Positions 1 to 42,686 of a stretch of 42,686 bases of DNA are shown piece after piece. The first letter of the stretch is position 1, and each line of letters starts with the position of its first letter. A program made the translations under genes and the position numbers. This DNA is from Escherichia phage PGT2. The notes under the pieces were generated by a model, which was not told where the DNA came from, ran no database searches, and saw only the letters and a list, made by a program, of their open reading frames with translations. The DNA is taken from sequence record NC_047890.1; one strand, 5' to 3'.

Positions 1-260
1 TCCAACACAAATGAGGTCGCGTTTCCCCCGTAGGCCCGGCCTTCTGGATGGCTAAATGGCTGGATGGATGGATGGCTGGACGGCTAGACGTTTAGACGGC
101 TAAATGGCCAAATGACCGTAAAAAGGGCCGTGGGCACTGATAGGGTCAATCGGGCTGTAAGCCACGCCAACCGGGGTTTCCGCACATTACTTTATAAGAG
201 AGCTTGTAAGGTGTCTGGCGGCGATCCGTCTACGACGGGAGAAGGAAAGAGACGTGGGGT
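1..260. repeat. Left direct terminal repeat (DTR), 260 bp
   Basis: Bases 1-260 are identical to 42427-42686, checked block by block. The repeat runs to the window edge, so 260 bp is a minimum length. Confidence 0.9.
48..118. repeat. Array of short imperfect ~8-bp repeats (CTRRAYGG-like) inside the terminal repeat
   Basis: ggctaaatgg ctggatgg atggatgg ctggacgg ctagacgt ttagacgg ctaaatgg ccaaatga read directly. Resembles the short repeat series in T7 terminal repeats. Confidence 0.6.
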
Positions 261-316
261 ATCTATCTTTTTGGATACGCCTATCTTTTTCTAGTCATCT
301 ATCTTCTTACGATGAG

Positions 317-336
317 CTATCTATCTATCTATCTAT
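317..336. repeat. (CTAT)5 microsatellite flanked by TATCT-TTTTT iterons
   Basis: ctatctatctatctatctat at 317-336; ctatcttttt recurs at about 263-273 and 284-294, just inside the left terminal repeat. Confidence 0.6.
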
Positions 337-383
337 CCAGCTATCCGATTATCTTCGCTTCGACGGATCGGCTATCGCCTTTC

Positions 384-413
384 TTGTCTCCGCTACGATA
401 AGGGAGCTATACT
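384..413 (+). promoter_or_regulatory. Candidate sigma70-type promoter (TTGTCT-18-TATACT)
   Basis: -35 ttgtct at 384-389, -10 tatact at 408-413, 18-bp spacer; lies upstream of the strong RBS of ORF 453. Confidence 0.3.
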
Positions 414-452
414 AAGGATTGTGTTATTGCTCTTTAAGAATGAGGTGAGATT

Positions 453-656
453 ATGGCTATACGTAATTGGGCGGCGGTGCTGGCCATTGTGGATAGTGTG
501 GGGACTGAAGCGGCGTTATCCTTGCCGTATGTTCCGGCTGATGCTAACACTATGCCGGACCGGGCCAAAAGATATGCAATTGAGTACAACATACAACGGG
601 GGAAGTATGGCGAGACCTTGCCGGAAGTACCGACGTCGTGCACTTATCGGGATTGA
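453..656 (+). CDS. Hypothetical early protein (67 aa)
   Basis: ATG at 453 preceded by SD gaggtgag with 7-nt spacing; first ORF after the terminal repeat. Confidence 0.45.
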   Translation: MAIRNWAAVLAIVDSVGTEAALSLPYVPADANTMPDRAKRYAIEYNIQRGKYGETLPEVPTSCTYRD

Positions 657-1047
657 TGTATCCGGGTATCATCCGCCGGCTGTGGTCCGGAACTGGTTAA
701 GGGATACTTTAAGGGATGAATCCAAGGGACTAGCCGATCAGCTTATTTGTAAGCCGTGGGCTGTCTGGTTAGTTTGGGCGCATGATGAGATAGATAGTAA
801 GCGGGTCAGTCTTCTGTGCTGTGTAGGGGAGCGGCAAGCCTTAACTATTATGGATAACGCGGCCCGGCTTGACGGGTATCTGTGCCGGCTGTATCAGTCC
901 GATGGCGATGCGGTCGATATTAGTCATCTGTCCGAGTATAAATCGGTGCATAACTGGACCGGATACTGGAAGCATGTACACGGTGAGGATATGCCGATGA
1001 CGATTAGTGATGACGGATTGAGAAAGCTGCGGGAGATGATAGCATGA
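607..1047 (+). CDS. Hypothetical early protein (146 aa); possibly the C-terminal part of a frameshifted product with ORF 453-656
   Basis: ATG at 607 follows a G5 run (598-602); frame is +1 relative to ORF 453 and overlaps its 3' end; a strong terminator follows the stop. Confidence 0.35.
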   Translation: MARPCRKYRRRALIGIDVSGYHPPAVVRNWLRDTLRDESKGLADQLICKPWAVWLVWAHDEIDSKRVSLLCCVGERQALTIMDNAARLDGYLCRLYQSDGDAVDISHLSEYKSVHNWTGYWKHVHGEDMPMTISDDGLRKLREMIA

Positions 1048-1051
1048 TGAT

Positions 1052-1088
1052 AAGGGGCGGGGAGTGTATCCTTGCCCCTTTCTTTTTG
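1052..1088 (+). terminator. Rho-independent terminator
   Basis: 12-bp stem aaggggcgggga / tccttgcccctt (two G-U pairs), loop gtgta, then tctttttgt. Confidence 0.6.
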
Positions 1089-1217
1089 TATTGTGGATCC
1101 CTGACGTTCTCCTGATCGGGCTTATGCACTCATGGCTGTGCGTTGGCTTGTCTTACGTGTGATTAGGTGTCTGGTGAGAACGTGGGAGATTATTTTCGAT
1201 TATTTTTAAAATATCGC

Positions 1218-1246
1218 TTGCATAGTTCGTGAGGAGGCTATATAGT
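1218..1246 (+). promoter_or_regulatory. Candidate sigma70 early promoter (TTGCAT-17-TATAGT) with AT-rich upstream region
   Basis: -35 ttgcat at 1218-1223, -10 tatagt at 1241-1246, preceded by tatttttaaaatat. Confidence 0.4.
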
Positions 1247-1442
1247 TAATTTCAACGGCGGGGTAGTGGGAAGACAAGCCGATAAAATAGGATTCCCTCC
1301 ACATGGTCAGTTACCATAGGTCATCCGAGACACCAAACGGAATAACTAACAAGTAGTAACACCGGGGCAAGGAGGCCGCCTCGAAAGAGGAAAGTAGCTG
1401 GTAATGGCGTATGAAGCATTACCCCGGTGAGAAAGAAAGAGA

Positions 1443-1471
1443 TTGACAAGTTCAGAAGTAAGCAGTAAGAT
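1443..1471 (+). promoter_or_regulatory. Candidate sigma70 early promoter (TTGACA-17-TAAGAT)
   Basis: Consensus -35 ttgaca at 1443-1448; -10 taagat at 1466-1471; shares the upstream 18-mer aagaaagagattgacaag with the promoter at 1639. Confidence 0.45.
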
Positions 1472-1638
1472 GTAAATCAAGCAGTACGGGAGGAGGCGCA
1501 ACGGAAGGCGCGACACGGCGGGGAGTGATACAAGGACGCGCCAAAGGGAGAACGGATAGGAACTGCGAACCCTTCCGGATACCCGCTACGGATAGCACAG
1601 TTTGCCGGAGTATGCAGACACGGTAAGCAAGAAAGAGA

Positions 1639-1667
1639 TTGACAAGCTGGACAAGTTACCCGATAAT
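1639..1667 (+). promoter_or_regulatory. Candidate sigma70 early promoter (TTGACA-17-GATAAT)
   Basis: Consensus -35 ttgaca at 1639-1644; -10 gataat at 1662-1667; an RBS and small ORF follow. Confidence 0.55.
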
Positions 1668-1698
1668 AAGCTCAACGAATCGCAACGAGGAGAGAGAA

Positions 1699-1857
1699 AT
1701 GACTTACTACGAATCAGCAGAGAACGAGATGATCACCGCAGCACGCGCAGAAAAAGAAGTGCGCCGCCACGGTTGCAGCGTAGCAGAATTTTACGCAGAC
1801 TGCGGTACTCATGAGGAGTACGACGCACAAGCTGTGTTAGAATGGTTAGGGTACTAA
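1699..1857 (+). CDS. Small acidic early protein (52 aa)
   Basis: ATG at 1699 preceded by SD aggagag; lies downstream of the promoter at 1639; 11 acidic versus 4 K/R residues. Confidence 0.45.
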   Translation: MTYYESAENEMITAARAEKEVRRHGCSVAEFYADCGTHEEYDAQAVLEWLGY

Positions 1858-1878
1858 CAGAAAGTTTGAAGAAATAGG

Positions 1879-1907
1879 TTGACAAGTTAAGCAGTAAGCA
1901 GTAACCT
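1879..1907 (+). promoter_or_regulatory. Candidate sigma70 early promoter (TTGACA-17-TAACCT, weak -10)
   Basis: -35 ttgaca at 1879-1884; the spacer carries two AAGCAGTA copies, paralogous to the promoter at 1443. Confidence 0.35.
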
Positions 1908-2122
1908 AGAAAGCAAGCAGTACAGCAGTATCACAGCAGCCTAGAATAGGTTGAGTCGCACTCGGTGTGAATAGCTGACCTGACAGCGATATGGTTCAGG
2001 GGGGCCGGAGGATAGACAGTGACGTCGCCAATAAGCCCAACAAACGAAAGGTTTGTTAGTGTATCCTCACAGTAGGGTACAGCAACAAACTAACCGTAAA
2101 CGCAACGTAAACGAGGCGCACC

Positions 2123-2362
2123 ATGACTACACGTACAGAATACAACGGACACAAAAACAAAACTCACTGGAATGTAAGCCTTTGGATTAATAACGATGAG
2201 GCACTTTACCAGTTGGCAAGAGAATTTATCAACGATAACAATAACCGTAATGATGCGGCCCGCGCTATGGCGTTATTTTTAGCACAGTTGGGACAAGATA
2301 AAACGCCGGACGGATTCAAATACAGCGCTACGGCGATCCGCGCCGCTATGGTTGAGATGTAA
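2123..2362 (+). CDS. Hypothetical early protein (79 aa)
   Basis: ATG with SD acgagg at 6-nt spacing; first of a run of tightly packed same-strand early ORFs. Confidence 0.55.
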   Translation: MTTRTEYNGHKNKTHWNVSLWINNDEALYQLAREFINDNNNRNDAARAMALFLAQLGQDKTPDGFKYSATAIRAAMVEM

Positions 2363-2373
2363 GGAGGCACAGC

Positions 2374-2640
2374 ATGAAACTTTCAAAACAGACCGCGACC
2401 GATATTAGAAGCGCACTCATTGGCAAGGACGTGCCAGCTATCGCAAAGGCTTATCAGGAAAAAGGTTTATCATTCACTCGCTTCATATGGGACGCGTATC
2501 ACTCTATCGGCCACGCTAAGACCAACGAGATACTGACAGCTAACAACAAGCTGACAGTTATTGGTGGCTATGTAACCGATATTAATGACAGCCATATTGA
2601 AACAATGCTAAAACTAGCGTTCAAAGATTGTAAGTTTTAA
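2374..2640 (+). CDS. Hypothetical early protein (88 aa)
   Basis: ATG preceded by strong SD aaggagg. Confidence 0.6.
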   Translation: MKLSKQTATDIRSALIGKDVPAIAKAYQEKGLSFTRFIWDAYHSIGHAKTNEILTANNKLTVIGGYVTDINDSHIETMLKLAFKDCKF

Positions 2641-2682
2641 GATAGCGGCATACAAATAAACGCAACGTAAATGAGGCGCACC

Positions 2683-3177
2683 ATGAAAGTATTAATTTCT
2701 GCATTCCGTAAAGAAAACGATCTGTTAACCCATATCAATAATCACGCGGAATTATTCGACCGCATCACCGCATTAGGATTGACGCCGCAGCCCGTCGATG
2801 GCGTGTGGAAAGGTGTATCGGAGTTTTCTTACATGGTACACGGTGTTACCACAGCGATGCTCAAAGCGTTTTATGCAATGGCCCGCGACTACAATCAGGA
2901 GGCTATCTTGCTTGTTGCTGATGATAACCGTGCCGCAGTAGTGCCCACCGATGGCCCGGTGATGGCCCCGATGATTGACGTTGGCGACTGGAGGGAAGTA
3001 AGCAAAGAGATCGCGATACAATTTGACGGATACACCAAGACACGCGACGGCCGCTATTTTGTCGCCGCCACTCGTGAGCAGTTCGGCCTCGCCACTCGTC
3101 GGCTGTTAGCCACACAGATGGGCGTAATCGCTGCTAACGAATATGCAGCACGTGTAAACGCAGTGGGAGGATTATAA
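2683..3177 (+). CDS. Hypothetical early protein (164 aa)
   Basis: Start at the second ATG (2683), chosen because the 28-nt block before it is 27/28 identical to the leader of ORF 2123; the provided ORF track begins at the in-frame ATG at 2671. Confidence 0.55.
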   Translation: MKVLISAFRKENDLLTHINNHAELFDRITALGLTPQPVDGVWKGVSEFSYMVHGVTTAMLKAFYAMARDYNQEAILLVADDNRAAVVPTDGPVMAPMIDVGDWREVSKEIAIQFDGYTKTRDGRYFVAATREQFGLATRRLLATQMGVIAANEYAARVNAVGGL

Positions 3178-3178
3178 A

Positions 3179-3427
3179 ATGCGCAAACTTAGTGAAATTG
3201 TACATCATACCAACGTATTCTATAACAGCAAGGGTTATCTGTGGATAACCCTGAAGGACGTGCGACCTGACGGGCGTCATCGTGTGGTAGTACGTAAAAT
3301 GTACAGCAAATACGTTAGTAATTGGTCATTGGATACAGTACGCATTAATAACGAGACTTTTCAGATTGACTCACAGATTGACCTACAACCAACGGCAAGC
3401 CATTCCGCACCATATTTTTCTAACTGA
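3179..3427 (+). CDS. Hypothetical early protein (82 aa)
   Basis: ATG preceded by SD gggagg; overlaps the stop of the upstream gene. Confidence 0.55.
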   Translation: MRKLSEIVHHTNVFYNSKGYLWITLKDVRPDGRHRVVVRKMYSKYVSNWSLDTVRINNETFQIDSQIDLQPTASHSAPYFSN

Positions 3428-3504
3428 ATCCGGGCCTATGCCGCGCACTCATGGGCGGCATACACACGCAGTCAGATCACTCCCATTAAATGAGGACACA
3501 GAGC

Positions 3505-3618
3505 ATGAACACAATAACATCCGGCCTTGCACTCATCGGCGCGATTATCGGCGTCGCTGTGTTTAACGCATTACCCTTGATTATTGGCGTGGCGGTCCTC
3601 AGTTGGTGGCTGTCATAA
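3505..3618 (+). CDS. Small hydrophobic peptide (37 aa), probable single-pass membrane protein
   Basis: ATG with SD gagga at 8-nt spacing; translation MNTITSGLALIGAIIGVAVFNALPLIIGVAVLSWWLS; below the 60-aa cutoff of the ORF track. Confidence 0.4.
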   Translation: MNTITSGLALIGAIIGVAVFNALPLIIGVAVLSWWLS

Positions 3619-3682
3619 TCCACGCACTCATAGCCACACTGTACGTTTCCCAATCGCATAAATCATTTTGAGATATACGCAT

Positions 3683-3862
3683 ATGAATATCAAAGAATCC
3701 GTATCCACAGAACGCGCCGCCGCCATACAGTACGCGCACGATAACCTATCACCGGATGCCTACTGGCTGTTCTGTGACCGCCTGCGAGAAACAGAAGACC
3801 TATCCCCGGATAATATCCACGCCCTTATTGTCGCAGTAGCGCAGGAGGTATCTAATGTTTGA
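3683..3862 (+). CDS. Small acidic early protein (59 aa)
   Basis: ORF track starts at TTG 3668; first in-frame ATG is 3683; weak RBS. Confidence 0.4.
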   Translation: MNIKESVSTERAAAIQYAHDNLSPDAYWLFCDRLRETEDLSPDNIHALIVAVAQEVSNV

Positions 3863-4103
3863 GGCAGCGAACGACGACCATTACAACGAAAAAACAGCGG
3901 TGGAAGAGGCACAGAAGCGCCAGCGGGATATAAATATGGCCTACTATACACGCGTGCCGCCGTTTTACGTGTTCCAGCAAGGCGCTGGCGTAGGCGTATC
4001 CTTCGGTTATGTCACGAGATACGGTTACTCCCGTGTAGGTTATGCCAGCTATTCAGATGCGGCAGAGGCGGCAGAGGCTTATTCCAGTGAGGTAGAAAGA
4101 TGA
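3855..4103 (+). CDS. Hypothetical early protein (82 aa), Tyr/Gly-rich
   Basis: ATG preceded by SD aggagg. Confidence 0.55.
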   Translation: MFEAANDDHYNEKTAVEEAQKRQRDINMAYYTRVPPFYVFQQGAGVGVSFGYVTRYGYSRVGYASYSDAAEAAEAYSSEVER

Positions 4104-4288
4104 CACAGCCTGTATATAACGTGTACCGGGGTACGGGCGTATGCGTCCGGATGACATACCGGGCTGTTCCGGGGGCCACAGTGTCCCAATTCCTCACTGA
4201 CTCCGGCTGGCAGGATAGTCTAGTGACTGAACGCACTATTCGCGCCAGTCTCCCACTCGTGGCTAAAAACGTGAGGTTCAAGGCATGA
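4100..4288 (+). CDS. Hypothetical early protein (62 aa)
   Basis: ATG preceded by SD gtgaggtag; overlaps the upstream stop. Confidence 0.5.
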   Translation: MTQPVYNVYRGTGVCVRMTYRAVPGATVSQFLTDSGWQDSLVTERTIRASLPLVAKNVRFKA

Positions 4289-4620
4289 AAATCATTAATC
4301 CGTTACATCTCATCCAGTTCGTGGTGGTTTACTTGTACACGTGGTACGCCCTACGCAGTGCGCCGCGTGTAGAAGGCTTTAACGTCGGCTGGAGTAGTCC
4401 GCACGATGACTTTCAGGTGTACTATAACGCGCAGGTCAACGTGTTAGGCGTAATCACACCAGCGCAGGACACTACATGGCAACCAGTCGGCTGGCGTGCG
4501 TGGTTCAACCTTGTCCGGGCATACGATGACCTGCTCGAACAGACCACAGCGGCGTTCATTGAAGCGTATCTCCCAGACTTCGCAGATGACATCAACGAAT
4601 CAGACACAGAGGACAAATAA
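4285..4620 (+). CDS. Hypothetical early protein (111 aa)
   Basis: ATG preceded by SD gtgagg at 8-nt spacing. Confidence 0.55.
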   Translation: MKIINPLHLIQFVVVYLYTWYALRSAPRVEGFNVGWSSPHDDFQVYYNAQVNVLGVITPAQDTTWQPVGWRAWFNLVRAYDDLLEQTTAAFIEAYLPDFADDINESDTEDK

Positions 4621-4622
4621 TT

Positions 4623-5132
4623 ATGACAAGCATCAATCCGGTAGACCTGACCACTTTAGGCGCACGAGTAACCGACCCGGCACAGTTGACAGAAGGCCGC
4701 TGGTATGTGGTCCGCGTTAACTGTAGAGGCTATACCCCACTGGTACACGCCAAATACTTGGGTATGAAAGGGCGCGCCTCACATGCGTTTGAGGTGTGCG
4801 ATGAGGATCATCTCGCGTTAAAGCGTTCTCTGGGCCTCGCCAAGCGCATCCACCGCGACAACGGTAGTATCCGCTCAGGGAAGATTGATGGCGGCGGTAT
4901 CTGCGAGATATTCAAGTTTAAGCAGGCGACAGCTACCCGATCCAATGCGCCGCAGCCCACCGCAACCTTATCCACAGTGGACCAATTCAAATCAGAGATT
5001 GACGCGTTACGTGCCAAGGCTACACAGAAGCGCGACCAGATTGCTCAGCTCTCAGAAGAGATTGCCGGGATTAACATCGCTATCTACGACACACGCAAGA
5101 AACTCAAAGCCAGCTTAGAGGGTTACATCTAA
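4623..5132 (+). CDS. Hypothetical early protein (169 aa)
   Basis: ATG two bases after the upstream stop; long ORF in the gene-dense early block. Confidence 0.55.
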   Translation: MTSINPVDLTTLGARVTDPAQLTEGRWYVVRVNCRGYTPLVHAKYLGMKGRASHAFEVCDEDHLALKRSLGLAKRIHRDNGSIRSGKIDGGGICEIFKFKQATATRSNAPQPTATLSTVDQFKSEIDALRAKATQKRDQIAQLSEEIAGINIAIYDTRKKLKASLEGYI

Positions 5133-5150
5133 TGCTTGAAGGTGACAAAC

Positions 5151-5462
5151 ATGAAACCGAATCAAAAGAAAATCCCCGCGCTCCTGCTATGCTCAGTCGG
5201 CCTGTTATGGGCGGTGGCGGGGGTCAATCAGGCGTATGCTTCGACCCATATGCAGCGGGAGACAGTGACGTTCAACAGTCTTTTCAAGTCGGATGGGATG
5301 ACTATCAGTGAGTATTGTTCTGTGACATTGCAGGGCAATACACAGATTGTTGAAGCATCCTGCTACGGCATACTGAAACCCACAGTGACGGACTTACAAC
5401 GCCGCTATCCACTCGTGGCCTTCCACGTGATTATCAATGGCGAGTCACTGAACACTATTTGA
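5151..5462 (+). CDS. Predicted secreted/periplasmic early protein (103 aa) with N-terminal signal peptide
   Basis: N-terminus MKPNQKKIPALLLCSVGLLWAVAGVNQAYAS has a basic n-region, hydrophobic core and AxA-like cleavage site; two Cys in the mature part; ORF track start 5136 is a TTG. Confidence 0.55.
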   Translation: MKPNQKKIPALLLCSVGLLWAVAGVNQAYASTHMQRETVTFNSLFKSDGMTISEYCSVTLQGNTQIVEASCYGILKPTVTDLQRRYPLVAFHVIINGESLNTI

Positions 5463-5470
5463 GGTGTATC

Positions 5471-5761
5471 ATGGAATTATCTGATGATGAACTGCGCCTG
5501 ATTCGTCGGGCGCTGGCGTTCGCAGTCCGTCACCTGCATGTATGTGCCGATGAAGCACGAGACAACCACCGCATTAAAGAGAAGCTCGACTGTCAGGTCG
5601 AAGCAGCACGGTTAACCACACTATCGGAGAAACTCCATGGGCAAATCATCAAACAACTCAAAGCCAAATCTCAAAACACTACACGAGGAACTGAGGGATG
5701 CGGAGCCAGATGCACTAATCTCTGTGCGGCAGGCGCGTGTCCTAATCGCCAGTCTGATTAA
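5471..5761 (+). CDS. Hypothetical early protein (96 aa)
   Basis: ATG with SD gagg at 6-nt spacing; its 3' part overlaps ORF 5637 in another frame. Confidence 0.4.
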   Translation: MELSDDELRLIRRALAFAVRHLHVCADEARDNHRIKEKLDCQVEAARLTTLSEKLHGQIIKQLKAKSQNTTRGTEGCGARCTNLCAAGACPNRQSD

Positions 5762-5963
5762 CCTCCAGAATGTTGTGGTGTCATTGATGGACACCATGGA
5801 CCATAACACCAAAATCATGAACGACTCCCACGCAGCGACGAATGAGAATTTCATCGGGCTGTTAGGCATCTGTAAGGTGCTGGGCCGGGAGTTAAACGTC
5901 GAGATTAACGGCATCAACGAGGCCACCACAGGCTCCCCATACAACAACAAAACGAGGCACTAA
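5637..5963 (+). CDS. Hypothetical early protein (108 aa)
   Basis: ATG with SD ggag at 7-nt spacing; overlaps ORF 5471 by about 125 nt. Confidence 0.4.
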   Translation: MGKSSNNSKPNLKTLHEELRDAEPDALISVRQARVLIASLINLQNVVVSLMDTMDHNTKIMNDSHAATNENFIGLLGICKVLGRELNVEINGINEATTGSPYNNKTRH

Positions 5964-5964
5964 T

Positions 5965-6270
5965 ATGAGCGAACGTATCTGCGTACCATATGCACGTAAA
6001 GGCAATCCAGACGTACACACTATCGTAATCCCAGCAGGCTTTATCAGTCTGGAAGACCTCTTGTCCCATGTCGGCTTCCAGCTTGGCATGGGCGACCAGT
6101 TGCTGGATGAGATTAACGGCCTTCTGGCACAGGAATACACAGCAGGCAAGCGCGCGCTGGCTGAAGTCCTGAGCCGGGCTACTCATAGCGCGACGTACAC
6201 TCCCAACATGGAGGATGCGCACCGTATCCTGACGGCTGAAGAATTGGGGTATGCAAATGACCGTGAGTAA
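5965..6270 (+). CDS. Hypothetical early protein (101 aa)
   Basis: ATG preceded by acgaggc-type SD. Confidence 0.55.
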   Translation: MSERICVPYARKGNPDVHTIVIPAGFISLEDLLSHVGFQLGMGDQLLDEINGLLAQEYTAGKRALAEVLSRATHSATYTPNMEDAHRILTAEELGYANDRE

Positions 6271-6361
6271 AGCCATTGGCTGGCTGATAGCCTACGCAGT
6301 GTTTTCTATAGTCGCCAACATCATCGGCGGCATCTCGTTAATTTTGTTCCTGCTCAAGTGA
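6251..6361 (+). CDS. Small hydrophobic peptide (36 aa), possible membrane protein
   Basis: Translation MQMTVSKAIGWLIAYAVFSIVANIIGGISLILFLLK; overlaps the end of ORF 5965 in another frame; weak RBS. Confidence 0.3.
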   Translation: MQMTVSKAIGWLIAYAVFSIVANIIGGISLILFLLK

Positions 6362-6369
6362 GGTAATTA

Positions 6370-6645
6370 ATGTCTGAGTTCCAGAAGAAACTTAAACAGG
6401 CGTTTTACGCTAACTTCTCCCGGCAGCGGACCGATAAAGAGGGTGTTATCTCTTACCGGACCTATTTTGGCACGTCCCTACCAACCACGCGGTACGTAGA
6501 GACGCTGGTGGATGAGAAGAAGTCTGCGACGGAAGGCGTGGACACAGTGGCGATTGTTGATCAGATTCGTGTGCACCATTTCAACGAAATCATGGGATAC
6601 ATCGACAACGAACTGCGCAAGGTTCTCAAATTGCAGGAGGGATAA
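6370..6645 (+). CDS. Hypothetical protein (91 aa)
   Basis: ATG preceded by SD gtgaggtaa; immediately upstream of primase. Confidence 0.55.
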   Translation: MSEFQKKLKQAFYANFSRQRTDKEGVISYRTYFGTSLPTTRYVETLVDEKKSATEGVDTVAIVDQIRVHHFNEIMGYIDNELRKVLKLQEG

Positions 6646-7466
6646 TGAACTACCGTGATTCCGATTGGTATTTGGCTATAAAAGACCATCCGGTCGGTAC
6701 TCGGCTGCGTATGGCACACGATGGCTGCTCCACGAGTGAGGCACTCATCGTCACAAAACAGGATTCCGGGGTAAGCGCGTATTGCTTCCGTTGCAAATGG
6801 AACGGATTCGTTGGCGCGCCTCCTGAATCGTTGGCCCAAAAGTTAGAGCGTAAATCTCGTGAGAAGCTCGCCAGCAAGGTGATGAAGGATAGTAAGGCGT
6901 TACCATCCCCCAAGTGCGAAAACATCGCTGAGTGGCCGCTAGAAGCGCGGATTTGGCTCTATAAAGCTGGACTTAATAACCATGACATATCTGAAGCTGG
7001 TATTTATTATCATGGAGGCAGTAATCGTGTGGTCATCCCTATATTTGATGGTGACGCGCTGGTGTATTGGCAAGCCCGTGGATTTGACCCTGAAGCGCCT
7101 AAGTACCTCAATCCGTCGGTGGTGGACCGGACTGCTCTTGTCGCCAACTGGTACGGCTCTGAAAGATGCCTTGTTCTTACAGAGGACTGGCTATCAGGCT
7201 ACCGGGTACATCGGGCCACAGGCTTCCAAGTCTATGCCCTCCTTGGGACAACACTCACGGACGCAATCGCGGCCCAAATCGTCTACAACCGTGTACCAGT
7301 GGCCATATGGCTCGACCCGGATTCGGCGGGCCAGACTGCGGCGCGGAAGATTATTGCTAAACTCAGTGCGCTGAACCACCCGGTTAAAAACATCGTCACT
7401 GAGCGGGATCCTAAACTTTACAGTGACGCAGAAATCCGGGAGGTGTTACGATGCGACCCACAGTGA
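6645..7466 (+). CDS. DNA primase (zinc-binding and TOPRIM domains)
   Basis: Cys cluster HDGC...CFRC near the N-terminus; TOPRIM-like LVLTEDWLSGYR and IWLDPDSAGQTAARK; strong SD aggaggg. Confidence 0.8.
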   Translation: MNYRDSDWYLAIKDHPVGTRLRMAHDGCSTSEALIVTKQDSGVSAYCFRCKWNGFVGAPPESLAQKLERKSREKLASKVMKDSKALPSPKCENIAEWPLEARIWLYKAGLNNHDISEAGIYYHGGSNRVVIPIFDGDALVYWQARGFDPEAPKYLNPSVVDRTALVANWYGSERCLVLTEDWLSGYRVHRATGFQVYALLGTTLTDAIAAQIVYNRVPVAIWLDPDSAGQTAARKIIAKLSALNHPVKNIVTERDPKLYSDAEIREVLRCDPQ

Positions 7467-7852
7467 TGGAGAGTTGTTGCATCTGCCATACGCAGAAAGG
7501 TCCCTATAATCAGGCAGGCCGTGCAACATACAAGGGCCGGATGGTGGGGTTACACAGGCTTATCTTCTTTAAGGAGTTCGGTTACTGGCCGGAAGTTGTC
7601 CTGCACCTCTGCGACAACCAGCGCTGTATAAATCCTGAACATCTGGTAGGAGGTACACAGGCAGACAACATCCGAGATGCAGTAGAGAAAGGGCGGTGGG
7701 TAAGAAATTTCCCTAATAAGTTATCCGCAGACACTGTTCGGGCCATACGAAGCGCGGTAGGCACAAACAAGCAGATAGCACAACAGTTTAATATAGACCC
7801 GGCGCATGTAAGCCGTATCAAAAATGGTATTGCTTATAAGGAGGTCACATAA
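7451..7852 (+). CDS. HNH homing endonuclease
   Basis: HNH core LHRLIF...HLCDNQRCINPEHL...N with a C-terminal helix-turn-helix-like segment; sits between primase and helicase. Confidence 0.7.
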   Translation: MRPTVMESCCICHTQKGPYNQAGRATYKGRMVGLHRLIFFKEFGYWPEVVLHLCDNQRCINPEHLVGGTQADNIRDAVEKGRWVRNFPNKLSADTVRAIRSAVGTNKQIAQQFNIDPAHVSRIKNGIAYKEVT

Positions 7853-7923
7853 GCCTCGATAGTGAATTTCTCCGTAGTATCCGACACCGCTCTAAGTTCA
7901 AAGAGCGTATAGGAACTACCCCC

Positions 7924-9132
7924 TTGTATTTGTTCGAAGAGAAGACACGCGACCTGATAAAGCTCATGTCACGTTATTTTAAGACTTACAAGGCGGCAGA
8001 CGTCATCCTAAAAGATGACTTCATAACTTGGCTGAATGAACTAAAGGGAGACAAACTAACAGAGTCTGACAGCATACTGTTTCAGGCACTCATGGAAGAT
8101 TTTGAGTATGACCTGTCTGCCGCCGCCGAGCAGTTCCTGACCGAGCGTTTGCAGGAATCCGATTTAGTCTACAAAACCGCAGACCTGATTGAGAAATGGT
8201 CGAACGGTGATGAGATTGAAATCATTGAGCAAATGAAAATCGTCACCGACAAAGCGGCATTTGGCCGTGCTGACCGGGACGGTATTAAAGTAGTCACAGA
8301 GTCGATTGAGGAGATTCTGGAGCACGCCGGGAGCAAGTGGGGATTCGAGTGGTCATTGCCAATATTAGCTAAGGCCATGCGACCCGCACAGCCGGGAGAC
8401 ATGATTCTCATAGCTGCCCGACCGGACCAAGGGAAGACTACATTCATCGGTAACATTGTCCGGCCTTGGCTGGCACAACTGGATGAAATATTCCCCGATG
8501 AAGAACGCTGCATTCTCTGGCTCAATAACGAGGGACCGGGTACTCGTATCAAGCTCCGAAATTACCAATCGGCCCTCGGCCTGACTATCCCAGAAGTGGA
8601 CCAGATGGCTCATACTCGTGGGATGCTGGACGAGGAATACAGGAAGGTGGTAGCCAATGCCGACCGCCTTATTATCCTCGACGTCCACGGCAAGAACACG
8701 GCACAGATTGAGCGGAAGATTGCTGAATTGAAGCCGGGTGTCATTGTCTGGGACATGCTGGATAAGGTGAAGTATGTTACAGAAGACGCTTTTAGGAATA
8801 CACGTACGGATGAGTATCTTGAAGGCTTGTACTCGTGGGTACGAGAATCCGGTGTCATATATGACTGCGTTAACGTCGTATCAACCCAGTTATCCGGTGA
8901 TGCTGAGAACATGCAGTATCCGCACCTCGGAATGCTCAAAGACTCAAAAACGGGCAAACAGGGTACGGCTGATGCCATCATTACGTTCGGGTCGGTTGAC
9001 ACTTACCCCCGTACACGATTCATTGGTCTTACTAAAAATAAGCTCAATATGGGCCGCGCTACGAGTCGCCTAGGCGAAGTCGTATTCGACGGTGCCCGTG
9101 GCTTAATCACTATGCCAGAGGTAGAGAAATGA
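7924..9132 (+). CDS. Replicative DNA helicase (DnaB/T7 gp4 helicase-domain type)
   Basis: Walker A ARPDQGKTT; the frame is closed upstream so the start is TTG 7924 or the internal ATG at 7966. Confidence 0.8.
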   Translation: MYLFEEKTRDLIKLMSRYFKTYKAADVILKDDFITWLNELKGDKLTESDSILFQALMEDFEYDLSAAAEQFLTERLQESDLVYKTADLIEKWSNGDEIEIIEQMKIVTDKAAFGRADRDGIKVVTESIEEILEHAGSKWGFEWSLPILAKAMRPAQPGDMILIAARPDQGKTTFIGNIVRPWLAQLDEIFPDEERCILWLNNEGPGTRIKLRNYQSALGLTIPEVDQMAHTRGMLDEEYRKVVANADRLIILDVHGKNTAQIERKIAELKPGVIVWDMLDKVKYVTEDAFRNTRTDEYLEGLYSWVRESGVIYDCVNVVSTQLSGDAENMQYPHLGMLKDSKTGKQGTADAIITFGSVDTYPRTRFIGLTKNKLNMGRATSRLGEVVFDGARGLITMPEVEK

Positions 9133-19095: not shown

Positions 19096-19139
19096 TGATT
19101 TAGGGTATTTGTTAAATATGGCTTGAAGCCTTGATATAT

Positions 19140-19169
19140 GGGGTTTCCGCACATTATTTTAATAAGGGG
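19140..19169 (+). promoter_or_regulatory. Conserved 28-bp element GGGGTTTCCGCACATTAYTTTA(A)TAAGRG; candidate phage promoter or other regulatory site
   Basis: Near-identical copies at 173-200 and 42599-42626 (inside the terminal repeats); first 17 nt identical, then 1 mismatch and 1 indel. Confidence 0.4.
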
Positions 19170-31509: not shown

Positions 31510-34500
31510 ATGAACTATACAGAACTTCGTGGTAAAACCTCCGACGAAATCTTTGAGGCTGTTGCCAAAGACACGGGGGTTCCTACTCAACTGCTGAAGA
31601 ACATGTGGCAGGTAGAATCTGGTGGCGGACAGAATATGAAGTCCCCCGCTGGTGCTGTCGGCCACATGCAAATTATGCCGCGCGAATTGGGCGTAATGCG
31701 TAAGACCTATGGTGAAGACCTCGACCCTATGAATTTGGCTGACTCGGTGTTTATGGCCGGGAAGATGCTCAAAGAAAACATGCAGCACTTTGGGAACATC
31801 CCCGATGCTGTATCCGCCTACAACGGCGGGTGGACTAAATCCCGATGGAGTAACCCAGAGACTTCGGCATACACCCCGAAGGTTCTCGCCGGAACAGGAA
31901 TCACCTTTGATGAACAAGGCACCCCGCACGTCGAGCAACCCTACACAACGAGCCGTGCTCAGATTGATTCGGTTCGTCCTGAACCTGTTGTTCAAGCGAA
32001 AACCTACTTAAATTCTGTAGAGAAGAACGCTATTGAACAGCAGATGTACAATAAGCAGCTTCAGGGTACTGACACCAATGAAGTTGTTAATGAGGCTGTT
32101 CAATTAAGTTTTAACCCGGAGGCTGCATTCGGTCTGGCTGATAGCCTATCCACTACACCTCCGGCAACCTCCTATGACAGCGCCGACCAAGCCATCGCCC
32201 TTGATGTGCAGGCGTCAGTCAAAGAGGCCACCCGTATTGCGAACACTACTGCCGGAGATGCCTTCTCCGCAGCATTCAAGCAATACTCGTTGACGGGTAC
32301 TGCTATGGAGGCGATGGCTAACACCACCGCCGATATAATGGACAAGCGCCAGCAGGTAGACCGGAAGTGGATTGAGGAGTACGAGGCAAAGCGTGAGCAG
32401 ATGATTAAAGGTCTGTCTCCCTATGCCGTTACTCAACTGGACCAAGCCCTTAACGCGCAGGAAGCGAAGGACATCGTGGACCGCGATAAGCGTGACCAAG
32501 TGGTCCAGCAGACTTTGAATGATTCTGGTCATCCAATCCTCTGGGGATTAACCGCAGGTATCCTTGACCCGGCTGGTTGGGTTGTTGGTGGGGGTGTAGG
32601 CAAGGCATTTATGCTTGGTAAAAGCGTCAGCATGGCTGCTCGCATGGGTAAGTTGGCCGCAGGTAACGCCGCAGGTAACGTGGCCGTTACTGGTGCTATG
32701 GATTTGTTGGGTGGCCAGATTACCCCTGACGACTATATCCATGCCGCTGCCTTTGGTTTGGCTACTGGTGCCGCTTTGGGAGCATTCTCTCGTGGCGACC
32801 GGGCGGCTATACAGCAGGCAGCAGCAGATATGCACGAAGCCGCAACAGCGCGTACTCAAGCGACCGTAGAACGCGCGGCGAAAGAGCACTACAAAATGTA
32901 CGCTGGTGTGGACCCGTTCGAAGCCACTGACCCAAATGCAATCGTACAGCTTCATCGTGGGAACACTGACCCTAGTAATGGTCCGGTGTGGTGGACTACC
33001 GACCGGGCTAAGGCCGCTGGGGATGGGGATGTTGACAGTATCTGGGTACGGGCCTCCGATATACAAACTAAGGGAGTGGCTGGTCCTAACGGCCCTGATG
33101 AAGTGGTATTCCAAACTGACCCTCGTTCGTTTGCTGTAGGCGGGCCGAGTGCTGAGGATTTGGCCCAGACAGCAGCTAAGATGTCTGAGCGTGAGATTAT
33201 GGATACTGTTGACCAAGTGCTCACTCAACCTACTGCTGAATCCAAAGTGTTCCAGCCACGGGACATCGACCCGGTAGAGACTGGTCGCCTACAGCAGCAG
33301 TACAGTCTGGATAGTGTAACCGATGAGCATCGCTTGTCATCCATCAACTCCCTGTACAAATCCGCTGAAGACTTCATCGCCGCCAACAAGGATAAGATTC
33401 GTCATACGGCTATTACCAACCAGAAGTACCGTCCCATATCCGATGCTCTCGGCTTTCGTTCCGCTAGTAACGAGTTAATCTCCGATGACAACTATCTGGC
33501 GAAGGTTTTGGGTATGGTGGTAGCTGAGGATACCGCTGGCATTTCTGGTGTCCGTGGGGTTACTGTGGCGATTAAATCTCGCTTACTGAACAACCACGTC
33601 AACCTGAACATTGAACGCGGTATCCACGAGAACTATACCGCTTACCTAAAGGCCAAGGGCGTTGGTCGCGTTAAAGGTGCTTTAGAAACCTACACCACCG
33701 GGAAGAACATTACCGAGTTCTATGCACAGGTTGCAGCAGAGATTCGTAACCGGGCCAACCCGATGTTCGTATCCACTGCACATCGTTCCGTACAGCAAGC
33801 AGCCAACGTACTGGAAGATGGCTTCCAGCGCATGGGTGACCTTCAGCGCATGGCTAAGACTCTGGGGCACGAGTTCATACCAACCAGTTCCCGTGGCTAC
33901 CTGCCGCAGCAACTGAATGGTAAGGCATTCGCCGCATTGTCTGGTGCAGAGAAGCGTCAGGTTCAACAGGAGTTCATCCGACAGGCTACCAAAGATTTTG
34001 GGTGGGATACAGAGTTCGCCTCTAAGAAGGTGGCCGAGTACATGAACCGTGCTGAGGATGCTGCTACGCCTGCTGGCCGGATGAATCCATCTGCTGGTAA
34101 AGACCTGATGGGTATGTTGATGGAAGAGTTGGATAACCCCAATCTGGCCCCTGACCAGTACATGCAGATTCTTGAGCGTCTCCGTTCTGGTGCTGCAAAG
34201 CATACCAACAAACGCCTTGACTGGGATTTGAACGCAACTATCCGTATGGATAACGGTGACATGATTCCTCTGTCCTCCCTGTACAATAACGACGTACTGT
34301 CACTGTACAAAGGGTACGCCAACCGGGTATCCGGTGACGTAGCATTCGCTCATGTAGGAATTTATGGCGACCGTGACATACGTATGATTACCGAGGCACT
34401 CCAGAGGAGCAAAGTTGGCGACCCTACGAAAACCATCCCGGCTTGGCAGCAAGTCGTCAACGAAGTTTACCAGCGCCCTACTGCCACTGACGCTGGTGGT

Positions 34501-42426: not shown

Positions 42427-42686
42427 TCCAACACAAATGAGGTCGCGTTTCCCCCGTAGGCCCGGCCTTCTGGATGGCTAAATGGCTGGATGGATGGATG
42501 GCTGGACGGCTAGACGTTTAGACGGCTAAATGGCCAAATGACCGTAAAAAGGGCCGTGGGCACTGATAGGGTCAATCGGGCTGTAAGCCACGCCAACCGG
42601 GGTTTCCGCACATTACTTTATAAGAGAGCTTGTAAGGTGTCTGGCGGCGATCCGTCTACGACGGGAGAAGGAAAGAGACGTGGGGT
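42427..42686. repeat. Right direct terminal repeat (DTR), 260 bp
   Basis: Exact copy of 1-260. Confidence 0.9.

What the first reader, a model, noticed from the sequence alone, without database searches (positions are those of the whole stretch)
5151..5462. Early gene encoding a secreted or periplasmic small protein
The product starts with a classical Sec-type signal peptide (MKPNQKKIPALLLCSVGLLWAVAGVNQAYAS), and the mature ~70-aa part has two cysteines that could form a disulfide. Exported early proteins are uncommon in T7-type phages and could act in superinfection exclusion or on periplasmic or envelope host targets.
Basis: partly seen in the sequence, partly recalled or inferred. Interest (0 to 1): 0.5.

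Follow-up and report, generated by a model that had tools for sequence, protein, structure and literature searches.

The report
Exported small early phage protein family
This early gene of coliphage PGT2 very probably encodes a small protein that is exported to the space between the host's two membranes and held together by one disulfide bond; it founds an undescribed family shared by several short-tailed phages of enteric bacteria, and its function is untested (most likely an accessory role at the cell envelope).

Summary
Window 5151-5462 (+) is a real gene, PGT2_g00012 of Escherichia phage PGT2 (Autographiviridae, Ermolevavirus), annotated only as hypothetical. It has a Shine-Dalgarno site, and its mature part is under purifying selection (dN/dS 0.10-0.27).

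The N-terminus has the three parts of a Sec signal peptide: MKPNQKK, an 18-residue hydrophobic core, then AYA|S. No SignalP-type predictor was available, so the support comes from about 35 homologues. All 21 long forms keep a hydrophobic core and an AxA-type site (20 of 21 also a basic N-region), although the signal sequences themselves are unrelated. All keep exactly two cysteines in the mature part.

An AlphaFold model of the 73-residue mature domain (pLDDT 90.7) is a small beta3-alpha-beta2 fold. It has no convincing match in PDB, Pfam, PHROGs, NCBIfam or PADLOC.

The family occurs in early regions of Ermolevavirus, Waewaevirus, Bonnellvirus, Citrovirus (Zobellviridae) and Xuquatrovirus, whose representatives I take to be podoviruses. 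A remote homologue, PTXU04 gp62, was "Not Fit" in a published CRISPRi screen, meaning dispensable in the laboratory.

Export is well supported. Superinfection exclusion is a reasonable hypothesis but has not been tested.

The parts
5139..5144 (+). Shine-Dalgarno site AAGGTG, 6 nt upstream of the ATG
   Evidence: Read directly from the sequence.
5151..5462 (+). CDS PGT2_g00012, a 103-aa preprotein plus stop codon
   Evidence: ORF list and translation. 100% match to the NCBI PGT2 protein. 95% identical but unannotated copy in phiKT. Overall dN/dS 0.17-0.42 against four relatives.
5151..5240 (+). Predicted Sec signal peptide, residues 1-30: MKPNQKK / IPALLLCSVGLLWAVAGV / NQAYA, with predicted cleavage A30|S31
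   Evidence: Three-part architecture. All 21 long homologues keep a hydrophobic core and an AxA-type site, and 20 of 21 a basic n-region, with unrelated sequences. In L002 the 5' part was replaced next to an HNH insertion, yet the segment is still signal-like. Sequence constraint is relaxed, dN/dS 0.6-2.6 on few sites.
5241..5459 (+). Mature 73-aa domain, predicted fold beta1-beta2-beta3-alpha1-beta4-beta5
5316..5318 (+). Codon of Cys56 (mature C26, in strand beta2)
   Evidence: Invariant in alignments A1, A2 and A3. Also present in the Xuquatrovirus homologues.
5361..5363 (+). Codon of Cys71 (mature C41, at the start of helix alpha1), proposed disulfide partner of Cys56
   Evidence: Invariant in A1-A3. 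The Cys-Cys spacing is 14-18 residues, and the variation lies in the beta2-beta3 hairpin. The disulfide itself is inferred.
5433..5459 (+). Conserved C-terminal motif INGESLNTI; family pattern (I/L)NGxx(L/I)Nx(I/V/T)-COOH
   Evidence: N66, G67 and N71 (mature numbering) are invariant across 13 sequences down to 14% identity.
1443..1471 (+). Context: first of three tandem sigma-70-like early promoters (TTGACA-17-TAAGAT) that probably drive the early block containing the gene
   Evidence: Consensus scan, 10 of 12 matches. Part of a repeated 26-60-nt promoter module (families D6 and D8). Consensus match only.
1639..1667 (+). Context: second sigma-70-like early promoter (TTGACA-17-GATAAT)
   Evidence: Consensus scan, 11 of 12 matches. 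Repeat family D8. Consensus match only.

Best explanation
PGT2_g00012 is an early gene read by the host RNA polymerase. Its 103-aa product is targeted to the Sec translocon by a classical type I signal peptide (residues 1-30). The long, very hydrophobic core may favour the co-translational SRP route. Signal peptidase I cuts after A28-Y29-A30. This releases a 73-aa soluble periplasmic domain (three strands, a helix, then a C-terminal hairpin ending in the conserved INGxxLNxI tail) that is locked by a DsbA-made disulfide between C56 and C71.

It is a founding member of an undescribed family confined, as far as found, to short-tailed phages of Enterobacterales. It is an accessory factor, not needed for a single round of lytic growth.

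My best guess for its role is that it binds a component in the periplasm so as to protect the already infected cell. The most likely form is superinfection exclusion: interference with the periplasm-spanning ejection machinery of a second incoming podovirus, for example its SLT-bearing gp16-like protein. This would be analogous in logic, not in ancestry, to T4 Spackle.

Shown: the gene, selection on it, conservation of the signal architecture and the cysteines, a confident fold model, and dispensability of a remote homologue. Inferred: export, cleavage site, disulfide, early timing. Speculative: the target and exclusion.

My probabilities: exported, about 0.85. Cleaved and soluble, given export, about 0.75. 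Exclusion or protection role, about 0.3.
For: - Gene reality: SD site and ORF. Purifying selection on the mature part, dN/dS 0.10-0.27, and 27 of 39 substitutions at third codon positions in codons 54-103 against L003.
- Export: basic n-region, 18-aa hydrophobic core, AYA|S site. All 21 long homologues from at least four genera have a signal-like N-terminus with an AxA-type site (AYA, ATA, AFA, VFA, VHA, AKA, ALA, AMA, ASA, VKA) although the signal sequences cannot be aligned with each other. In L002 an HNH gene was inserted upstream and the 5' part of the signal was replaced, yet the new N-terminus is again basic and hydrophobic, followed by SRA|H.
- Disulfide: there are exactly two cysteines in every mature domain, and both are invariant. 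This pattern is expected for a periplasmic disulfide and not for a cytoplasmic protein.
- No twin-arginine motif and no lipobox.
- Fold: pLDDT 90.7. The same fold is predicted for homologues in PTXU04, LIMEzero and Lidtsur, with TM 0.72-0.83.
- Early position: promoters at 1443 and 1639, and no terminator-like site between about 3560 and the gene. The LIMEzero homologue ORF11 lies in that phage's annotated host-promoter block.
- Accessory role: PTXU04_00062, a remote homologue (hhalign probability 92%, Foldseek E 1e-5), is 'Not Fit' in CRISPRi-ART (PMC11879866, supplementary file 16).
- A plausible periplasmic phage target exists: the 1400-aa internal virion protein has an N-terminal SLT domain.
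- The family was found only in podovirus lineages (PMC11990801).
Against: - No signal-peptide predictor and no experiment were available.
- The hydrophobic core (18-19 aa in the Ermolevavirus clade, up to about 20 elsewhere) is longer than the typical 10-15 aa of E. coli signal peptides. It is long enough to span a membrane.
- The short forms (75-79 aa; Citrovirus and some metagenomic phages) have a hydrophobic N-terminus without any basic residue and without a clear AxA site.
- Nothing links the protein to exclusion. There is no homology or fold similarity to Spackle, Imm, Sim, Llp or Cor, no conserved neighbouring partner gene, and no phenotype.
- Dispensability in one screen of a 10%-identical homologue is weak evidence.
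Confidence: 0.35

Rival explanations
1. The N-terminal segment is not cleaved. It acts as a signal anchor or a signal-arrest-release (SAR) domain. The protein would then be a type II inner-membrane protein with its small domain in the periplasm, working at the membrane surface. Examples of such roles are an antiholin like T4 RI or an Imm-like block of DNA entry.
For: The uncharged hydrophobic run is 18-19 aa in the close clade, and the summed Hessa-type insertion energy is down to -2.4 in P0002. The run contains three Gly and three Ala, as SAR domains do. The short forms lack a recognisable cleavage site. T4 RI is likewise a small early exported protein (my own knowledge).
Against: An AxA-type site directly follows the hydrophobic core in all 21 long forms, despite otherwise unrelated signal sequences. 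That conservation is hard to explain without cleavage. The core is leucine-rich rather than weakly hydrophobic. There is no sequence or fold similarity to RI or any PDB chain. Presence of the family does not follow lysis-cassette type, since PGT2 and phiKT use holin, endolysin and disruptin.
Confidence: 0.15
2. It is exported and cleaved as in the best explanation, but it serves the phage's own infection rather than exclusion. It would bind and neutralise a host periplasmic or envelope factor, such as a protease, a peptidoglycan enzyme, the Tol-Pal or TonB system, or an envelope-based defence system.
Confidence: 0.25
3. The signal-like N-terminus is incidental and the protein stays in the cytoplasm. 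Alternatively, the selected product of this stretch is the overlapping +2-frame ORF 5132-5311.
For: The 59-codon alternative ORF starts at an ATG overlapping the upstream stop (TAATG). It is open in five close relatives. Substitutions in codons 1-53 of the main frame are spread evenly over codon positions, and synonymous divergence there is low.
Against: The signal architecture and both cysteines are conserved in homologues where the alternative frame is unrelated. The alternative product is low-complexity (a GGGGG run) and is no better conserved than the main frame: 14 of 59 versus 11 of 53 amino-acid changes against L003. The drop in divergence does not coincide with the end of the alternative ORF in L008, so it looks like recombination mosaicism. 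In L002 the alternative frame is merely the tail of an inserted HNH gene.
Confidence: 0.04

Closest known systems
PTXU04 gp62 (PTXU04_00062, Xuquatrovirus) and Bas95_0068 of phage HelliStehle
   Same: Remote homologues. hhalign probability is 92% and 97.7%, and Foldseek TM is 0.83. Same layout: signal peptide ending VAHA|N, two cysteines 14 residues apart, C-terminal xNG/DGxExxKS tail, early-region position.
   Different: About 10-35% identity, in a 56-62-kb podovirus group outside Autographiviridae. gp62 is the only member with any experimental datum ('Not Fit' in CRISPRi-ART). It was left 'unknown' there even after HHpred and AlphaFold searches.
LIMEzero ORF11 (Waewaevirus) and Lidtsur gp13 / glasur_11 (Bonnellvirus)
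   Same: Same family: Foldseek TM 0.72-0.75, aligned in A3. Same length (103-104 aa), classical signal peptide (VHA|A, ALA|A), two cysteines, C-terminal INGxxINL(I/T), and a position a few genes upstream of primase.
   Different: 14-21% identity to PGT2. The Cys-Cys spacing is 18, not 14. In these genera a conserved roughly 110-aa gene lies 2-3 nt upstream. PGT2 has an unrelated 169-aa gene there.
T4 Spackle (Sp, gp61.3)
   Same: A small early phage protein exported by a cleavable signal peptide to the periplasm, where it blocks superinfection by inhibiting the incoming phage's cell-wall-degrading enzyme (my own knowledge). PGT2 has an analogous candidate target, an SLT domain on its gp16-like ejection protein.
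T5 Llp and T1/phi80 Cor (lipoprotein exclusion factors)
   Same: Small exported phage proteins that act at the envelope to block the phage's own receptor (PMC11990801; my own knowledge).
   Different: Those are lipoproteins. That cysteine is not conserved. No sequence or fold match.
T4 RI antiholin
   Same: A roughly 100-aa early protein with an N-terminal export segment and a small periplasmic domain (my own knowledge).
   Different: RI uses an uncleaved SAR domain and binds the holin T. Here a conserved AxA site argues for cleavage. No similarity was detected.

Membership tests
Sec-type (signal peptidase I) signal peptide | Positively charged n-region | tested here: met
   MKPNQKK, net +3. 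20 of 21 long homologues have at least one K or R.
Sec-type (signal peptidase I) signal peptide | Uninterrupted hydrophobic h-region, typically about 7-15 aa | tested here: met
   I8-V25, 18 aa, mean Kyte-Doolittle 2.2. This is at or above the usual upper limit, which keeps the signal-anchor rival alive.
Sec-type (signal peptidase I) signal peptide | Polar c-region with small neutral residues at -3 and -1 | tested here: met
   NQAYA|S. An AxA-type site follows the core in all 21 long homologues.
Sec-type (signal peptidase I) signal peptide | Positive call by a trained predictor (SignalP, Phobius, DeepTMHMM) | not testable with these tools
   No such predictor was available. Only rule-based scripts were run.
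Sec-type (signal peptidase I) signal peptide | Demonstrated export and cleavage | not testable with these tools
   Needs PhoA fusions, cell fractionation and N-terminal mass spectrometry.
Lipoprotein signal peptide (as in T5 Llp and Cor) | Lipobox [LVI][ASTVI][GAS]C at the end of the h-region | tested here: not met
   The residues before C14 are L-L-L, and the cysteine is not conserved across the family. L002 has LVAC by chance, followed by a further hydrophobic stretch.
Tat signal peptide | Twin-arginine motif (S/T)RRxFLK in the n-region | tested here: not met
   There is no RR in residues 1-30.
T4 Spackle (gp61.3) family | Sequence or fold homology to Spackle | tested here: not met
T4 Spackle (gp61.3) family | Inhibits the incoming phage's cell-wall hydrolase and excludes superinfection | not testable with these tools
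   Only the existence of a possible target was shown: an SLT domain in ORF 31510-35712.
SAR-domain or signal-anchor exported proteins (T4 RI type) | Uncleaved, weakly hydrophobic Gly/Ala-rich N-terminal membrane segment | tested here: inconclusive
   The core has three Gly and three Ala but also six Leu. Its length of 18-19 aa is compatible with a membrane span. The conserved AxA site argues against this reading.
PGT2_g00012-like family (defined here) | N-terminal export segment, then C-x14-18-C, then C-terminal (I/L)NGxx(L/I)Nx(I/V/T), in a total of 75-105 aa | tested here: met
   C26, C41, N66, G67 and N71 are invariant in A3. 33 database clusters at E<=0.01, all unnamed. The shared fold has TM 0.72-0.83.

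The most novel reading that the evidence does not exclude
The family is a new class of periplasmic superinfection-exclusion or anti-competitor factor specific to podoviruses. It would be a Sec-exported, disulfide-locked mini-protein that jams assembly or function of the periplasm-spanning ejection channel (gp14/15/16-type proteins, including the SLT domain) of a second incoming short-tailed phage. It would be shared across Autographiviridae, Zobellviridae and Xuquatrovirus by horizontal transfer.
Probability: 0.25. Interest if true: 0.6.

Novelty: new variant of a known kind. Interest (0 to 1): 0.4.

Why it matters
Small proteins that lytic phages export early are the classic means by which an infected cell is closed to competitors (T4 Spackle and Imm, T5 Llp). 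As far as I know, no such factor has been described for T7-like or other coliphage podoviruses.

This work turns a single 'hypothetical protein' into a defined family. The family has a confident fold model and a clear sequence signature (signal peptide, C-x14-18-C, INGxxLNxI tail). It occurs in five phage genera infecting E. coli, Klebsiella, Pantoea, Cronobacter, Kosakonia and Erwinia, and there is evidence of dispensability.

That makes it a cheap and direct candidate to test for exclusion, or for a new periplasmic host target. This is relevant to the design of phage cocktails, where mutual exclusion matters. If it proves to be an ordinary accessory protein with a minor role, the gain is only better annotation.

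Tried and rejected
- Pfam, PHROGs, NCBIfam and PADLOC scans of PGT2_g00012 and its homologues: no significant hits.
- PDB sequence-profile searches with A1 and A3: nothing relevant.
- Foldseek against the PDB with the first, single-sequence model (pLDDT 65, signal helix included): only spurious hits. That model was discarded.
- The AFDB50 fold library was not available.
- An IMG/VR scan found only PGT2 and phiKT themselves. The A3 alignment was too divergent for that tool.
- Lipoprotein and Tat readings were rejected on sequence.
- Overlapping +2-frame ORF 5132-5311: considered because it is open in five relatives and the codon-position pattern is flat there. Judged unlikely, since it is low-complexity, no better conserved than the main frame, and the pattern is explained by mosaicism plus a relaxed signal region.
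- Rfam scan of 1-9000: no RNA family. Base composition is unremarkable.
- The upstream in-frame ATG in Pecta would give a basic n-region, but it was rejected because the SD site sits before the annotated ATG.
- Literature searches for a characterised exported early protein of T7-like phages, or any mention of this gene in phiKT, PGT2 or LIMEzero papers, found nothing.

Full report
**Identity of the window and the gene**

The ATG is at 5151, the stop at 5460-5462, and there are 103 codons. An AAGGTG Shine-Dalgarno site ends 6 nt upstream.

The product is 100% identical to NCBI 'hypothetical protein PGT2_g00012 [Escherichia phage PGT2]', found on a contig of 42,686 bp, which is the length of the window. 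PGT2 is a horse-faeces coliphage closely related to phiKT and 'very distantly related to T7' (PMC5773715). phiKT is classified as Autographiviridae, genus Ermolevavirus.

phiKT carries a 95% identical copy at 446-754 of NC_019520. That copy is not annotated, and neither is any other ORF upstream of the phiKT primase gene.

**Is it a real gene?**

Comparison with four relatives (phiKT and three metagenomic phage contigs, L003, L004 and L008) gives dN/dS of 0.10-0.27 for the mature part. dS there reaches 1.0-1.1. In codons 54-103, 27 of 39 substitutions (L003) and 22 of 34 (L008) fall on third codon positions.

The first 30 codons behave differently. There dN/dS is 0.6-2.6, on few sites. All five amino-acid differences between PGT2 and phiKT lie in that segment, while the mature parts are identical. 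This is the usual behaviour of signal peptides, which are constrained in physical character but not in sequence.

**The signal peptide**

Residues 1-30 divide into three regions:
- n-region MKPNQKK, net charge +3.
- An uncharged hydrophobic run IPALLLCSVGLLWAVAGV, 18 aa.
- c-region NQAYA, with Ala at -3 and -1, followed by Ser31.

There is no twin-arginine motif and no lipobox, since the residues before Cys14 are L-L-L.

I could not run SignalP, so the stronger argument comes from comparison across homologues. Three rounds of sequence search, a structural search of viral models and tblastn searches of phage genomes recovered about 35 relatives. All 21 full-length forms have a hydrophobic core and an AxA-type site directly after it, and 20 of 21 have a basic n-region. 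The sites seen are AYA|S, ATA|S, AFA|D, VFA|A, VHA|A, AKA|S, ALA|A, AMA|G, ASA|V, VKA|E and SRA|H. The signal sequences themselves cannot be aligned between clades.

In contig L002 a homing-endonuclease (HNH) gene has been inserted immediately upstream. The 5' part of the signal has been replaced, yet the new N-terminus (MKRNKLLLLSGVILVACLVVGTSRA|H, GTG start behind GAGGTGG) is again signal-like.

In a scan of every + strand ORF of the window, this is the only plausible gene with the full n/h/AxA pattern.

The main caveat is the length of the core (18-19 aa, longer in some clades). It is above the typical range for E. coli signal peptides and could span the membrane. A group of short forms (75-79 aa; Erwinia phage Pecta, Klebsiella phage Klyazma and metagenomic contigs) has a hydrophobic N-terminus with no basic residue and no clear cleavage site. 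Their start codons are fixed by SD sites or by upstream stop codons.

**The mature domain**

An AlphaFold2 model built on a 13-sequence alignment is confident, with mean pLDDT 90.7 and pTM 0.76. It shows strands at 5-17, 22-30 and 33-37, a helix at 41-55, and a C-terminal hairpin at 59-65 and 68-70.

Across 13 sequences down to 14% identity, five columns are invariant: C26, C41, N66, G67 and N71 in mature numbering. Every member has exactly two cysteines in the mature part. Their spacing varies only from 14 to 18 residues, within the beta2-beta3 hairpin.

Two invariant cysteines in a protein that also carries an export signal is the expected signature of a periplasmic, DsbA-made disulfide. I could not read the model coordinates, so the bond itself is inferred. 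The other invariant residues form a C-terminal (I/L)NGxx(L/I)Nx(I/V/T) tail.

**What it resembles**

It resembles nothing characterised.
- Pfam, PHROGs, NCBIfam and PADLOC give no significant hit for PGT2_g00012 or its homologues.
- Profile searches of all PDB sequences give nothing relevant.

Against predicted viral structures, the model matches four uncharacterised proteins apart from itself:
- Escherichia phage PTXU04, TM 0.83.
- An unnamed 79-aa protein, TM 0.79.
- Pantoea phage LIMEzero, TM 0.72.
- Escherichia phage Lidtsur, TM 0.75.

Reading those genes shows the same layout in each: signal peptide, two cysteines, and an INGxxINL(I/T) or DGLELSKS tail. hhalign confirms the Xuquatrovirus proteins as remote homologues, at 97.7% and 92% probability.

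**Distribution and context**

The family occurs in these groups:
- Ermolevavirus: PGT2, phiKT and metagenomic relatives.
- Waewaevirus: LIMEzero.
- Bonnellvirus and relatives: Lidtsur, glasur, usur, forsur, Cronobacter RZ4, Pantoea ROV85, Kosakonia Kc261.
- Citrovirus (Zobellviridae): Pecta, Klyazma, VR7901, Asterion.
- Xuquatrovirus: PTXU04, Pondi, Bas95.

The Xuquatrovirus phages are described as podoviruses (PMC11990801), and I take the Autographiviridae and Zobellviridae to be podoviruses from my own knowledge. The hosts are all Enterobacterales. All 33 database clusters are unnamed. Bacterial labels such as 'Cutibacterium acnes' sit on phage-sized contigs of about 42 kb.

In every genome examined the gene lies among small early genes. 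In PGT2 that block follows three tandem sigma-70-like promoters (1443, 1639 and a third repeat copy near 1879) and precedes primase at 6645. In LIMEzero the homologue lies between the annotated host promoters and the terminator/phage promoter before primase.

There is no conserved neighbouring partner gene across genera. Bonnellvirus and Waewaevirus share a tightly abutting upstream gene of about 110 aa. PGT2 instead has an unrelated 169-aa gene there.

**Functional evidence**

The only experiment touching the family is the CRISPRi-ART screen of PTXU04. PTXU04_00062 (gp62) was scored 'Not Fit', with a fitness value of -2.05, like its non-essential neighbours. Its annotation remained 'unknown' after HHpred and AlphaFold searches by those authors (PMC11879866). 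The family is therefore probably accessory, as exclusion genes are. But this is one screen of a very distant homologue.

PGT2 does have a periplasm-acting virion enzyme that an exclusion factor could target. That enzyme is an SLT transglycosylase domain at the N-terminus of the 1400-aa gp16-like protein. This only shows that the hypothesis is possible.

**Most likely mechanism and its rivals**

I think it most likely that the protein is:
- made early and exported through Sec (probability about 0.85);
- cleaved after A30, given export (about 0.75);
- oxidised by DsbA;
- active as a soluble periplasmic binder that protects the infected cell, most plausibly by excluding a second incoming podovirus (about 0.3).

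The rivals are:
- An uncleaved signal-anchor or SAR topology, 0.15.
- A periplasmic inhibitor of a host envelope factor that benefits the phage's own infection, 0.25.
- A cytoplasmic protein, or a functional overlapping ORF, 0.04.

The overlapping +2-frame ORF (5132-5311) was examined because it is open in five relatives and the codon-position pattern is flat there. It is low-complexity and no better conserved than the main frame. The pattern is better explained by recombination mosaicism plus a relaxed signal region.

**Verdict**

Its structural interpretation (an exported, disulfide-bonded small early protein) is well supported by comparative evidence. Its functional suggestion remains a hypothesis.

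The finding is not a surprise in kind, because phages are known to export small early proteins. It does define a previously undescribed family that is easy to test, in phages where no such factor is known. I rate interest at 0.4 and novelty as a new variant of a known kind.

Noticed in passing
window 5132-5311 (+), +2 frame relative to the gene: A 59-codon ORF (MLEGDKHETESKENPRAPAMLSRPVMGGGGGQSG...) starts at an ATG overlapping the stop of the upstream gene (TAATG). It is open in PGT2, phiKT, L003, L004 and L008. In the overlap the main-frame substitutions are spread evenly over codon positions and dS is low. It is probably not coding: it is low-complexity, no better conserved than the main frame, and the pattern fits mosaicism.
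   Followed up: partly
L001 (phiKT NC_019520) 1-2104: The phiKT record annotates no CDS upstream of primase, although at least six ORFs there are conserved with PGT2. These include the 95%-identical homologue of this gene at 446-754. The record also starts about 4.7 kb later than PGT2 relative to the shared sequence.
   Followed up: partly
window 7451-7852 (+); L002 4039-4659: An HNH-type ORF of 133 aa sits between primase and helicase in PGT2 but is absent from phiKT, where primase ends at 2923 and helicase starts at 3027. In contig L002 a different HNH_3 gene is inserted directly upstream of the family gene. It overlaps the gene and has replaced the 5' part of its signal peptide.
   Followed up: partly
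window 4623-5132 (+): The upstream 169-aa gene looks modular. Its N-terminus and its C-terminal coiled-coil-like tail (…TLSTVDQFKSEIDALRAK…GYI) are shared with a 246-aa version in L002 that has an extra middle segment. Genes of 270-440 aa occupy the same position in L008, L005 and L003. Function unknown.
   Followed up: partly
window 3505-3618 (+) and 6251-6361 (+): Two very small ORFs (37 and 36 aa) in the early block are almost entirely hydrophobic: MNTITSGLALIGAIIGVAVFNALPLIIGVAVLSWWLS and MQMTVSKAIGWLIAYAVFSIVANIIGGISLILFLLK. They are possible membrane peptides. A 37-aa gene is called at a comparable place in several relatives.
   Followed up: no
window 1425-1492, 1621-1667, 1869-1928 (+); 1052-1080 (+): There are three tandem copies of a conserved promoter module (AAGAAAGAGATTGACAAG…), with sigma-70-like -35 and -10 hexamers in the first two, reminiscent of T7 A1-A3. 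A strong terminator-like hairpin (12 pairs plus a T-run) lies just upstream at 1052-1080.
   Followed up: no
window 148-194, 19115-19161, 42574-42620 (+): A 47-nt element ending GGGGTTTCCGCACATTAYTTTA occurs in the 260-bp terminal repeat (both ends) and once at 19.1 kb, at the start of the structural region. It may be a phage RNA polymerase promoter.
   Followed up: no
window 36244-36829 (+): A long run of imperfect 21-nt-periodic repeats (Ala/Thr/Ser-rich heptads) lies inside the 924-aa tail-fibre gene. That gene has a T7 tail-fibre N-terminal domain and a C-terminal Peptidase_S74 chaperone domain.
   Followed up: no
protein P0031: A family member is named 'hypothetical protein ABEQ23_12230 [Cutibacterium acnes]', but it lies on a 42.6-kb contig seen in 65 assemblies. 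This is probably an enterobacterial podovirus genome carried as a contaminant or mis-binned sequence.
   Followed up: no
window 4253-4281 vs 5409-5437 (+): A 29-nt direct similarity (72%) links the 3' end of the small ORF 4100-4288 (…LPLVAKNVRFKA) and the region of this gene that encodes PLVAFHVIIN. It is probably chance.
   Followed up: no
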